Source: Octopus sinensis
Taxonomy: Eukaryota
Assembly: GCF_006345805.1 (NCBI RefSeq)
Contig: NC_042998.1
Span: 194,680,001-194,744,000 of the forward strand
Direction: 5' to 3'
DNA: 64,000 nt
Position numbers: made by a program. The first letter of the stretch is position 1; each line of letters opens with the position of its first letter. Shown here one piece after another: positions 12,026 to 14,083 of the stretch.

Positions 12026-14083
12026 TATATAGTTATGGTATATTCTGTTAAGATCATAGTAGAGTACAGCATAAAGCTTAGCCACCTTCAGATTNNNNNN
12101 NNNNNNNNNNNNNNNNNNNNNNNNNNNNNNNNNNNNNNNNNNNNNNNNNNNNNNNNNNNNNNNNNNNNNNNNNNNNNNNNNNNNNNNNNNNNNNAAAGAG
12201 AGAGAGAAAGTTAATGCTTGTGTAGGTATGAGAGAGTGGGGAGACTCAAATCGTGAGAGGGAGAGAGCACGAGGGAGAGTGAGAGAGCGCGAGGGAGAGT
12301 GAGAGAGCGCGAGGGAGAGGGAGAGAGCGCGAGGGAGAGGGAGAGAGCGCGAGGGAGAGGGAGAGAGCGCGAGGGAGAGGGAGAGAGCGCGCGGAGAGGG
12401 AGAGAGCGCGAGGAAGAGGGAGAGAGCGCGAGGAAGAGGGAGAGAGCGCGAGGAAGAGGGAGCTAGAGAGCGAGGAAGAGGGAGCTAGAGAGGGAGGAAG
12501 GGGGAGCTAGAGAGGGAGGAAGGGGGAGCTAGAGAGGGAGGAAGAGGGAGCTAGAGAGGGAGAAGAGGAGCTAGAGAGGGGGAGAGGGAGATAGAGAGGG
12601 AGGAAGAGGGAGATAGAGAGGGAGGAAGAGGGAGATAGAGAGGGAGGAAGAGGGAGATAGAGAGGGAGGAAGAGGGAGATAGAGAGGGAGGAAGAGGGAG
12701 ATAGAGAGGGAGGAAGAGGGAGATAGAGAGGGAGGAAGAGGGAGATAGAGAGGGAGGAAGAGAGACGGATGAAGAGGGAAAAGAGAGAAGCGAGAGAAAT
12801 AGCGAGAGACTGAAGTGAGAGAGGAGGAGGGAAGACAGAAAGAGAGGAAGAAAAGCTGGAAGGAGAAGAGAAGGAGGGAGAAAGATAGAGGGAGAAAGAA
12901 AGAGGGAGAGAAAGAGGAGATAGGGGTCAGAACTTTGAGCGAGAGCGAGGGAAGAAAAAGACGGATGAAGAGAAGAGAGGGAAGGAGAAAGAAAGAGAGA
13001 GAGAGAAAGAGAGAGAGACTGAGGTCAGAAGTTCCTTGATTCTAAGCCAGGATCCAAAACTGAATCTTGCATTTCTCTTACCAGTTCCTTTAGTTCCGAC
13101 TTTGCTGAACTTGAACGAACTGATTTATTCTTCCAAACTTTCCTTGCTGTTAAATCAGCATAGTTTTTCATTGATGGGAGTTTGTTTTCAACCTTTGAAT
13201 ATTTTCAACCTTTGAATTAAGCGACCCACGCAGTTCAGCCCAAACAATAAAGACAAAACAAATTTTCGGAAACATTTTTATTAATCGTCTTATATTCTTA
13301 ATTCCACGTGCGGTAAGCAATAATGGCCAACTTAAGAAGCGAAAGTCCTAGAGATGTTAAATTGTCTCATTTTTGTGAAGTCGCAAAAGCCAACCGAGAA
13401 CTATTTTTATAGAAAATAGTTTCTAATTCACTTCTGTCGTCTTCATCGTCGCCTCCTTCGGCCGCCCCTCCTTCGTCTTCGCCTTCTCCCCCTCCTTCGT
13501 CCCCTCCTTCGCCCCCTCCTTCGTCCTCTCCTCCTCCCCCTTCTTCCTCTCGATCGTCGCCGTCGTCGTCGCCGTCGTCCACCAATGGAATACACTCGTC
13601 TACGACTTAATCTGCCTCCGTTAAAACTACCATGACTTCTCACACTGGATAAACTGCGCTCTCGTCTTCCGCCACCGACCAGCAGACTCTGCCGGCTCAT
13701 GGATGGGCGTATTGCTCTACGCGTCCTCGAACGCGATGCGTTTTCTTTAACAATCATCCTTGTGTCTGTCGTCACTCAAGGCTTCCGAAAGTGTCTCACC
13801 CCTCTCTCTCTCTATTGCAGCGAAAGTTAGAGCAAGATTGAAAATCGGTACGACTATGAAGTAACTCGCCGAAAGTCGTGTTTTATATAAGGTATGTGTA
13901 GCACGTGATCTGCCAGATCAAAGATATTATTGGTTGAAAAGAAAGGTCACGTGACAGGAATGGTACATTGATATTCCCATTTCCAGACACTTACCTGGCA
14001 CAGGGGTAAACCATGATCACCATACAGACACACGTTCGCAATCGTATACACACACATGTACACGCTCACACACACACACACGT

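What the first reader, a model, noticed from the sequence alone, without database searches (positions are those of the whole stretch)
13255..13960. Complete intronless protamine-precursor gene hidden among low-complexity ORFs
Seen in sequence: a 104-aa ORF with its own TATA/CCAAT/E-box promoter, a good start context and a poly(A) signal, ending in a 44-aa domain of 35 Arg, 8 Gly and 1 Ser built from 12-nt GGR-CGA-AGG-AGG (GRRR) units. From memory (unverified): Octopus vulgaris sperm protamines Po1 (56 aa) and Po2 (44 aa) were defined by protein sequencing, and the last 56 and 44 residues here (starting at 13613 and 13577) have exactly those lengths. Inference: this is their gene, revealing a further 48-aa pro-region not seen in mature sperm protein. 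Small low-complexity genes like this are easily masked or missed in annotation.
Basis: partly seen in the sequence, partly recalled or inferred. Interest (0 to 1): 0.85.

Follow-up and report, generated by a model that had tools for sequence, protein, structure and literature searches.

The report
Likely octopod sperm protamine precursor gene
A small, unannotated, single-exon gene in what looks like octopus DNA very probably encodes the precursor of an arginine-rich sperm DNA-packing protein (protamine); it fills in a known kind of gene and is not a surprise.

Summary
On the minus strand an ATG at 13757 opens a 104-codon ORF ending at TGA 13445-13443. Its last 44 residues are 35 Arg, 8 Gly and 1 Ser.

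This is not a chance reading of a purine repeat:
- No other 44-codon open stretch in any frame of the 64 kb exceeds 18 Arg.
- 0 of 2000 dinucleotide shuffles of the tail reach 35 Arg.
- Only the Arg frame is open through the unique 180-nt leader.
- The predicted transcription unit is the strongest CpG island of the window.
- TATA, CCAAT, two CACGTG boxes and AATAAA plus a GT-rich element sit where a roughly 600-nt mRNA needs them.

The best reading is a protamine-precursor gene of an octopod.

The claimed identity with Octopus vulgaris Po1/Po2 could not be tested. No search returned a named relative. Exact look-ups of 20 boundary variants found none in the collection. The 2004 protein paper is not held. 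Expression and conservation are untested.

Verdict: new member of a known kind, moderate interest.

The parts
13858..13960 (-). Putative core and proximal promoter. It holds the 10-bp palindrome GTCACGTGAC (13955-13946, containing CACGTG 13953-13948), CCAAT (13933-13929), a second CACGTG (13907-13902) and TATATAAAA (13889-13881).
   Evidence: Sequence read; coordinates. CACGTG has only 6 sites in the 64 kb, and 4 of them lie within 13305-14084. TATATAAAA occurs 6 times on both strands of the window. The function of these motifs is inferred, not shown.
13758..13857 (-). Predicted 5' UTR of about 100 nt. The start at about 13857 is inferred from the TATA position.
   Evidence: There is no ATG in the 132 nt between TATA and the ORF's ATG, and in-frame stops lie upstream of the ATG. 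The transcription start is not mapped.
13443..13757 (-). Coding sequence of 104 codons plus TGA. The predicted product is a 12.7 kDa precursor with 50 Lys+Arg, 2 Asp+Glu and no Cys.
   Evidence: This is the only open frame through the unique leader. CpG o/e is 1.54 against 0.41 for the window.
13614..13757 (-). Leader (pro-region), residues 1-48. It is Ser/Arg/Gly-rich, non-repetitive, and carries Arg-x-x-Ser/Thr sites.
   Evidence: No homologue was found. Its removal by cleavage is inferred.
13578..13613 (-). Residues 49-60, a 12-residue link ending in Gly-Gly. It would be kept in a 56-aa form and lost in a 44-aa form.
   Evidence: The two cleavage points are inferred from recalled protein lengths only.
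13446..13577 (-). Arginine domain, residues 61-104: R35 G8 S1 (79.5% Arg), predicted 6.0 kDa. It is built from degenerate 12-nt Gly-Arg-Arg-Arg units.
   Evidence: Eight codon types collapse to 3 amino acids in this frame, against 5 and 8 amino acids in the other two frames. The Arg density is unique in the window.
13260..13442 (-). Predicted 3' UTR of about 180 nt, with AATAAA at 13282-13277. A GT/T-rich element at 13262-13240 lies just beyond it.
   Evidence: CpG o/e is 1.63 in this AT-rich stretch and falls to 0.52 in the next 500 nt. The 3' end is not mapped.
13200..14000 (.). CpG-rich island coextensive with the predicted transcription unit.
   Evidence: It reaches up to 31 CpG per 300 bp, against a window mean of 4.6 (sd 4.4), the highest value in the 64 kb.

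Best explanation
This is a single-copy, apparently intronless gene of an octopod genome, at least within this window.

Proposed mechanism: the gene is transcribed from a TATA/CCAAT/CACGTG promoter into an mRNA of about 600 nt. The mRNA encodes a 104-aa protamine precursor. By analogy with other cephalopod and vertebrate protamine precursors, the protein would be made in spermatids and laid onto DNA. It would be transiently phosphorylated on the Ser-rich leader and trimmed from the N-terminus in steps, first to a form of about 56 aa and then to the 44-aa Arg/Gly/Ser core. The Arg runs of that core neutralise DNA phosphates and condense sperm chromatin.

Shown here: the ORF, its composition, frame-specific purity, the motif layout and the CpG island.

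Inferred: transcription, testis specificity, cleavage sites, phosphorylation and chromatin function.
For: ORF and composition:
- The ORF and its composition are exact as described.
- 35 Arg in 44 is unique among all open 44-codon stretches in six frames; the next best is 18.
- 0 of 2000 shuffles of the tail reach 35 Arg or the observed entropy.

Frame-specific purity:
- Unit-to-unit DNA variation is almost all synonymous in the Arg frame. CGA 14, AGG 14, AGA 5 and CGG 2 all encode Arg; GGA, GGG and GGC all encode Gly.
- 8 codon types give 3 amino acids in this frame. The same bases give 5 and 8 amino acids in the other frames.
- Only this frame is open through the non-repetitive 180-nt leader. 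The other two frames have 4 and 5 stops. 74 of 2000 shuffles are open.

Locus context:
- The locus is single-copy in the window.
- 1 of 87 ATG ORFs of 75 aa or more has the TATA + CCAAT + downstream AATAAA layout, and it is this one (the criterion was set after seeing the locus).
- 4 of the 6 CACGTG sites of the window lie within 13305-14084.
- It is the strongest CpG island of the window. CpG o/e is 1.4-1.8 over the CDS and 3' UTR, dropping to 0.52 beyond the predicted poly(A) site, against 0.41 window-wide.
- Octopod context: a neighbouring zinc-finger ORF is 83% identical over 46% of its length to an Octopus vulgaris protein.

Literature seen:
- Squid protamine Sp2 has 58 aa and 79% Arg (PMC3073880, passages).
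- N-terminal cleavage of protamine precursors is common in invertebrates and vertebrates, squid included (PMC12216123, Discussion passage and Fig. 3 legend).
Against: - No relative of any kind was found. phmmer against 1.84 billion representatives gave 0 hits at E<=0.001. The word-index search of residues 1-62 scored 11 candidates, none at E<=1. The search with the 56-aa tail scored 8000 candidates, none at E<=10.
- Pfam gave 0 families even at E<=10. PDB gave 0. The ESM Atlas best score was 0.79, to bacterial CotG-like clusters, which is noise level.
- Exact look-ups of 20 boundary variants found none in the collection. HMMER's composition correction makes these searches nearly blind to poly-Arg, but the 60-aa leader should have found an annotated orthologue if one were in the sets.
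- No expression data and no second octopod genome could be consulted.
- TATA-like and AATAAA motifs are frequent in this AT-rich DNA: AATAAA 0.86 and TATAAA 0.59 per kb per strand.
- The openness of the leader alone is only p of about 0.04.
- The locus is flanked by minisatellites that also give long open frames.
Confidence: 0.7

Rival explanations
1. Chance ORF: a degenerate polypurine minisatellite that happens to read as poly-Arg, extended upstream by an accidentally open stretch. It is not transcribed or translated.
For: - The window is full of micro- and minisatellites that produce long open frames. 41 of 193 stop-to-stop ORFs of 75 aa or more have their three commonest residues making up at least half of the ORF.
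- All three minus-strand frames of the tail are open.
- There are no homologues.
- The motif test was defined post hoc.
Against: - The Arg density is twice that of any other stretch and was never reached in 2000 shuffles.
- Variation between units is synonymous only in the Arg frame.
- 18 CpG in 132 nt, and CpG non-depletion across leader, UTRs and promoter, in a genome with CpG o/e 0.41.
- The repeat stops exactly at a stop codon, and the frame continues through 60 unique codons to an ATG with A at -3 and no upstream ATG after the TATA box.
Confidence: 0.08
2. A real gene for an Arg-rich protein that is not the main sperm protamine. Examples: a paralogue or minor variant, a spermatid transition-type protein, an inactive duplicate of the protamine gene, or an Arg-rich nucleolar or RNA-binding peptide.
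For: - Identity with the sequenced sperm proteins is untested. None of the 20 boundary variants was in the collection.
- The species of the window is not established (one search shows only an octopod-type repeat).
- A 48-60-aa leader is long for a protamine precursor (recalled comparison with decapod cephalopods).
- Only 64 kb was seen, so other copies elsewhere cannot be excluded (one search covers the window only).
Against: - An intact frame, promoter-like and poly(A) motifs and a CpG island argue against a dead copy.
- There is no poly(A) tract or other retrocopy mark after the 3' end.
- 79.5% Arg over 44 residues built from three residue types is protamine-grade. It equals the 79% of squid Sp2 (PMC3073880).
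Confidence: 0.17
3. One exon of a larger spliced gene, with the Arg-rich stretch as a C-terminal tail of a bigger protein.
For: No transcript data. Splice sites cannot be excluded by reading alone.
Against: - In-frame stops lie just upstream of the ATG.
- A TATA box sits 132 nt upstream with no intervening ATG.
- The stop is followed by AATAAA about 160 nt downstream.
- No neighbouring ORF has a family match on the same strand within several kb.
- The exhaustive phmmer search had no length limit and found no longer protein carrying the leader.
Confidence: 0.05

Closest known systems
Octopus vulgaris sperm protamines Po1/Po2 (Gimenez-Bonafe et al. 2004, Mol Reprod Dev 68:232; seen only as a reference-list entry, not held; contents recalled)
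   Same: As I recall the abstract, the main protamine Po2 has 44 residues made of only three amino-acid types and is about 80% Arg. Po1 is a minor, slightly longer form thought to be a late processing intermediate. The C-terminal 44 residues here are R35 G8 S1 (79.5% Arg), and a 56-residue form would extend them N-terminally.
   Different: No sequence comparison was possible. No named hit came back from any search. None of the 20 boundary variants looked up by exact sequence was in the collection. The species of the window is unknown. The smaller protamines that I recall (Po3-Po5) are unaccounted for.
Squid (Loligo) protamines Sp1/Sp2 and the squid protamine gene (Lewis et al. 2004, J Mol Evol 58:673; seen as citations only. 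Protein facts from PMC3073880, passages)
   Same: Both are small cephalopod sperm proteins. Sp2 has 58 aa and 79% Arg in long Arg runs. It is made as a precursor whose N-terminal part is cleaved off during spermiogenesis (PMC12216123, Discussion and Fig. 3 legend).
   Different: Squid protamines carry 4-5 Tyr and one Pro. Here the spacers are Gly, with no Tyr or Pro in the 44-aa core and one Tyr in the 56-aa form. The leader here (48-60 aa) is longer than the roughly 20-aa leader I recall for decapod cephalopods. The gene structure of the squid gene was not seen.
Eledone cirrhosa cysteine-rich protamine (Gimenez-Bonafe et al. 2002; citation and one sentence in PMC12216123)
   Same: An octopod sperm protamine with Arg clusters.
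   Different: That protein is Cys-rich and forms inter-protamine disulphides. The ORF here has no Cys at all.
Vertebrate protamines P1/P2 (Pfam protamine families)
   Same: They work alike: Arg clusters for DNA charge neutralisation. Mammalian P2 is also trimmed stepwise from an N-terminal leader (PMC12216123).
   Different: There was no Pfam match even at E<=10. The composition is convergent and there is no demonstrable homology.

Membership tests
Protamine-type sperm nuclear basic protein (P type) | Small size: mature protein roughly 3-10 kDa (PMC11607694 Introduction) | tested here: met
   Predicted 6.0 kDa (44 aa) and 7.4 kDa (56 aa) products. The precursor is 12.7 kDa.
Protamine-type sperm nuclear basic protein (P type) | Very Arg-rich (usually 60-80%), with Arg stretches separated by neutral residues and pI >= 12 (PMC3073880; PMC12216123) | tested here: met
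   79.5% Arg in the last 44 aa and 69.6% in the last 56 aa. Runs of 3-8 Arg are separated by Gly or Ser. Computed pI is 12.0.
Protamine-type sperm nuclear basic protein (P type) | Present in mature sperm nuclei; gene expressed in spermatids | not testable with these tools
Protamine-type sperm nuclear basic protein (P type) | Made as a precursor whose N-terminal leader is cleaved during spermiogenesis (a common but not universal feature) | tested here: inconclusive
   A 48-60-aa non-repetitive Ser/Arg-rich leader precedes the Arg core. Cleavage itself is not testable.
Octopus vulgaris Po1/Po2 | Sequence identity with the chemically sequenced 56-aa and 44-aa proteins | not testable with these tools
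   The paper is not held. No named hit came back. None of the 20 boundary variants looked up by exact sequence was in the collection. It is unknown whether the collection contains those proteins, so the misses are weakly negative at most.
Octopus vulgaris Po1/Po2 | Source organism is Octopus vulgaris | tested here: inconclusive
   The only named relative of any ORF in the window is an O. vulgaris protein, at 83% identity over 46% of a repeat-derived zinc-finger ORF. This points to an octopod but not to a species.
Vertebrate protamine P1 / P2 (Pfam) | Match to the family profile | tested here: not met
   0 families for the whole ORF, the 56-aa tail and the 60-aa leader at E<=10, and at E<=0.01.
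Conserved protein-coding gene | Orthologous ORF preserved in related species | not testable with these tools
The protein sets gave no orthologue.

The most novel reading that the evidence does not exclude
One 104-aa precursor from this single small gene supplies the whole series of octopus sperm basic proteins by stepwise N-terminal, and perhaps internal, trimming. Its unusually long 48-60-aa Ser/Arg-rich leader would act as a built-in transition protein: the uncleaved, phosphorylatable form displaces histones, and later trimming drives final condensation. One gene would then do what mammals do with separate transition-protein and protamine genes.
Probability: 0.15. Interest if true: 0.55.

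Novelty: new member of a known kind. Interest (0 to 1): 0.4.

Why it matters
If confirmed, this would tie octopod sperm protamines, known from protein chemistry, to a gene. That would give the full precursor sequence, the cleavage sites, the promoter and the repeat architecture.

It would allow several comparisons:
- with the squid protamine gene and with the Cys-rich protamine of Eledone;
- of how Arg-coding minisatellites grow and are held in frame;
- of how long leaders relate to chromatin-condensation patterns.

It is also a concrete case of a real gene that annotation pipelines probably miss because it is short, low-complexity and without homologues. None of the 20 boundary variants looked up by exact sequence, the full ORF included, and no similar protein, is in the protein sets searched. 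It does not change the understanding of protamines.

Tried and rejected
Homology and family searches:
1. Three homology searches: residues 1-62, the whole ORF against 1.84 billion representatives and the 56-aa tail. All came back empty. HMMER's composition correction makes the tail searches uninformative.
2. Pfam at E<=0.01 and E<=10, PDB sequences and the ESM Atlas (best 0.79 to bacterial CotG-like clusters, treated as noise). No lead came from any of them.
3. Exact-sequence look-ups of 20 possible precursor or mature boundaries: none in the collection.

Literature: 10 searches plus one that failed on term length.
-; one search was the failed one.
- No held paper describes an octopus protamine gene or gives Po1/Po2 sequences.
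- The 2004 paper is not held.
- Supplementary files were not consulted and might hold cephalopod protamine sequences.

Taxon of the window:
- Rfam gave 0 matches at gathering scores.
- The Atlas search with the zinc-finger ORF gave only generic C2H2 clusters.
- Only one search gave an organism name.

Rejected readings:
- A plus-strand gene across the repeat. The plus-strand frames read as Pro/Ser/Leu-rich low complexity, run into stops in the unique part and have no start.
- A repeated or transposon-borne locus. A blastn of 13200-14050 against the window found only itself.
- A retrocopy. No A-tract follows the 3' end.

Not attempted:
- Structure prediction, because the protein is expected to be disordered.
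- The genome-contig scan, because it holds only bacteria and archaea.
The TREX-like ORF was searched as a single exon only, and no joined step was done.

Full report
**Observation**

The finding is accurate to the base.

- On the minus strand the first ATG, at 13757, opens 104 codons that end at TGA 13445-13443.
- The product has 49 Arg, 16 Gly, 13 Ser and no Cys.
- The last 44 residues (from 13577) are R35 G8 S1. The last 56 (from 13613) add one each of Leu, Val, Tyr and Ile.
- Tandem Repeats Finder sees the 12-nt period at 13465-13546 (6.8 copies, 72% matches). Periods of 24 and 48 score better.
  - GTCACGTGAC 13955-13946
  - CCAAT 13933-13929
  - CACGTG 13907-13902
  - TATATAAAA 13889-13881
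  - AATAAA 13282-13277
  - a GT/T-rich run 13262-13240
- The ATG has A at -3. No ATG lies in the 132 nt between the TATA box and the start.

**Is it more than chance?**

ORF length alone proves nothing. The window has 193 stop-to-stop ORFs of 75 aa or more. In 41 of them the three commonest residues make up at least half of the ORF. The locus also sits between a 22-bp GA-rich minisatellite (12255-13018) and a TG microsatellite (14048-14130). Five independent properties still set it apart.

1. *Arg density.* 35 Arg in 44 codons is unique. The next-richest open 44-codon stretch in any of the six frames has 18. 0 of 2000 dinucleotide-preserving shuffles of the 132-nt tail give 35 or more Arg in an open frame (maximum 25).

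2. *Frame-specific purity.* The DNA units differ from one another, but the differences are silent only in the Arg frame.
   - CGA (14), AGG (14), AGA (5) and CGG (2) all give Arg. GGA, GGG and GGC all give Gly.
   - Eight codon types make three amino acids, an entropy of 0.83 bit.
   - The same bases read as 5 and 8 amino acids in the other two frames (1.85 and 2.68 bit).
   - 0 of 2000 shuffles reach 0.83 bit.

3. *Open leader.* The frame continues through 180 nt of non-repetitive sequence. The other two frames there have 4 and 5 stops. 74 of 2000 shuffles stay open.

4. *CpG island.* The predicted transcription unit is the strongest CpG island of the 64 kb. It has up to 31 CpG per 300 bp against a mean of 4.6 (sd 4.4).
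   - CpG o/e is 1.63 in the AT-rich 3' UTR, 1.76 in the tail, 1.41 in the leader and 1.36 in the promoter.
   - It is 0.52 in the 500 nt beyond the predicted poly(A) site, and 0.41 for the window.

5. *Motif layout.* Of 87 ATG-to-stop ORFs of 75 aa or more, 1 has TATA 60-220 nt upstream, CCAAT within 100 nt of it and AATAAA 50-300 nt downstream. It is this one. I set that criterion after seeing the locus, and single motifs are common here (AATAAA 0.86 per kb per strand). CACGTG is rare: 6 sites in 64 kb, 4 of them within 13305-14084 and two just upstream of the TATA box.

The locus is single-copy within the window.

**Surroundings and origin**

- About 0.5 kb upstream, on the other strand, a C2H2 zinc-finger ORF (14333-14839) matches seven proteins.
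- The only named one is from Octopus vulgaris, at 83% identity over 46% of the query.
- The best hit (60% identity, unnamed) begins with a stretch that I recognise from memory as the usual C-terminal end of LINE-type ORF2 proteins. I therefore read this ORF as transposon-derived.
- The window has 38-39% G+C, is CpG-depleted and is dense in microsatellites.
- This fits an octopod genome but does not name the species.
- Rfam gave nothing at gathering thresholds.
- A 100-base N run lies about 1.1 kb beyond the gene's 3' end. It was left as it is.

**What it most likely is**

The product has the defining compositional features of a protamine.

- The core is small and is 79.5% Arg, in runs separated by Gly or Ser. 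Computed pI is 12.
- That equals the 79% Arg of the 58-residue squid protamine Sp2 (PMC3073880, passages).
- An N-terminal leader removed during spermiogenesis is described as common for invertebrate and vertebrate protamines, squid included (PMC12216123, Discussion passage and Fig. 3 legend).
- The leader here is Ser/Arg-rich with several Arg-x-x-Ser/Thr sites. I infer these are phosphorylation sites, as in other precursors.

The proposed mechanism is spermatid transcription, deposition of the 12.7-kDa precursor, stepwise N-terminal trimming to forms of about 7.4 and 6.0 kDa, and charge neutralisation and condensation of sperm DNA. Only the sequence features are shown. Every biochemical step is inferred.

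**The specific claim (gene of Po1 and Po2)**

I too recall that the 2004 paper on Octopus vulgaris sperm proteins describes a 44-residue main protamine made of three amino-acid types, and a minor longer form taken for a late precursor. That would fit strikingly. It remains memory.

- The paper appears only in a reference list and is not held.
- Ten literature searches found no held text with those data or with an octopus protamine gene.
- No search returned a named protamine.
- Exact look-ups of 20 boundary variants, including the 44-, 56- and 104-residue forms, found none in the collection.
- I do not know whether the collection contains the sequenced proteins. These misses are at most weakly negative for the Po1/Po2 identity.
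- The misses do show that this ORF is not among the annotated proteins available here.

**Rivals**

- *A chance ORF* (0.08) is contradicted by the frame-specific purity, the CpG island and the shuffles.
- *A real gene for another Arg-rich protein, a paralogue or an inactive copy* (0.17) cannot be excluded without proteomic or genome-wide data.
- *An exon of a larger gene* (0.05) is unlikely given the upstream in-frame stops, the TATA box and the poly(A) signal. The length-unrestricted search also found no longer protein.

**Comparison and novelty**

It works like squid and vertebrate protamines. Membership in the compositional class "protamine" is met for size and Arg content. It is untestable here for sperm location and processing, and not met for the vertebrate Pfam families.

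It differs from related proteins as follows:
- From squid protamines: Gly rather than Tyr spacers, and a longer leader (the decapod leader length is recalled).
- From the Eledone protamine: no Cys.

The proteins and the squid gene are known, so this is a new member of a known kind. Its value is in supplying the precursor, promoter and repeat architecture for an octopod, and as an example of a gene that annotation skips.

**Limits**

- No cephalopod genomes, transcriptomes or proteomes could be searched.
- No spliced model was needed, and no joined-exon step was done.

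Noticed in passing
window 1433-1738 (-): A short reverse-transcriptase-like ORF fragment (Pfam RVT_1, E 6.6e-05, 23.2 bits, below the 29.6-bit gathering score). It was one of only two of the 150 ORFs scanned that matched any family. It is presumably part of the retroelement-like (virus-like) stretch the operators mention. It is described only; its extent and breaks were not analysed.
   Followed up: no
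window 14333-14839 (+): A C2H2 zinc-finger ORF about 0.5 kb upstream of the putative protamine promoter. Its start is read through a (GTAT)n microsatellite. It matches 7 proteins, one of them from Octopus vulgaris at 83% identity over 46%. The best hit carries what I recall as a LINE ORF2-type C-terminal end. It is probably a retrotransposon remnant and not a host zinc-finger gene.
   Followed up: partly
window 59501-59821 (-): An ORF whose residues 29-105 match the N-terminal exonuclease region of three-prime repair exonuclease 1/2 (TREX1/TREX2) structures, best E 6e-09. It sits in a second CpG-rich island (59451-59850, CpG o/e up to 1.5). It is probably the first coding exon of a TREX-like gene. 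Only this single exon was searched.
   Followed up: partly
window 30950-31146, 32466-32630, 34764-34984, 52043-52213: A dispersed family of short tandem arrays with 62-67-bp units that share a common core. One of them lies in a G+C-rich, CpG-rich patch at 30751-31300. It is an unclassified interspersed or satellite repeat.
   Followed up: no
window 12255-13018 (+): A 22/44-bp GA-rich minisatellite. Its first third carries regular GCGCG insertions (22 CpG per 300 bp). It begins just after a 100-base N run that was left unfilled.
   Followed up: partly
window 4476-5034, 5644-5965, 15807-16724, 26781-27292: Long tetranucleotide microsatellites: (ACAT)n, (TACA)n of 231 copies, and (AAAG)n of 130 copies. 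They account for most of the long ORFs listed in the window.
   Followed up: no
window 13305-13310 and 14079-14084: Two further CACGTG sites flank the gene, one in the predicted 3' UTR and one inside the TG microsatellite. With them, 4 of the 6 sites of the whole window cluster within 780 bp around this locus. Whether this is regulatory or a by-product of local CpG richness is open.
   Followed up: no
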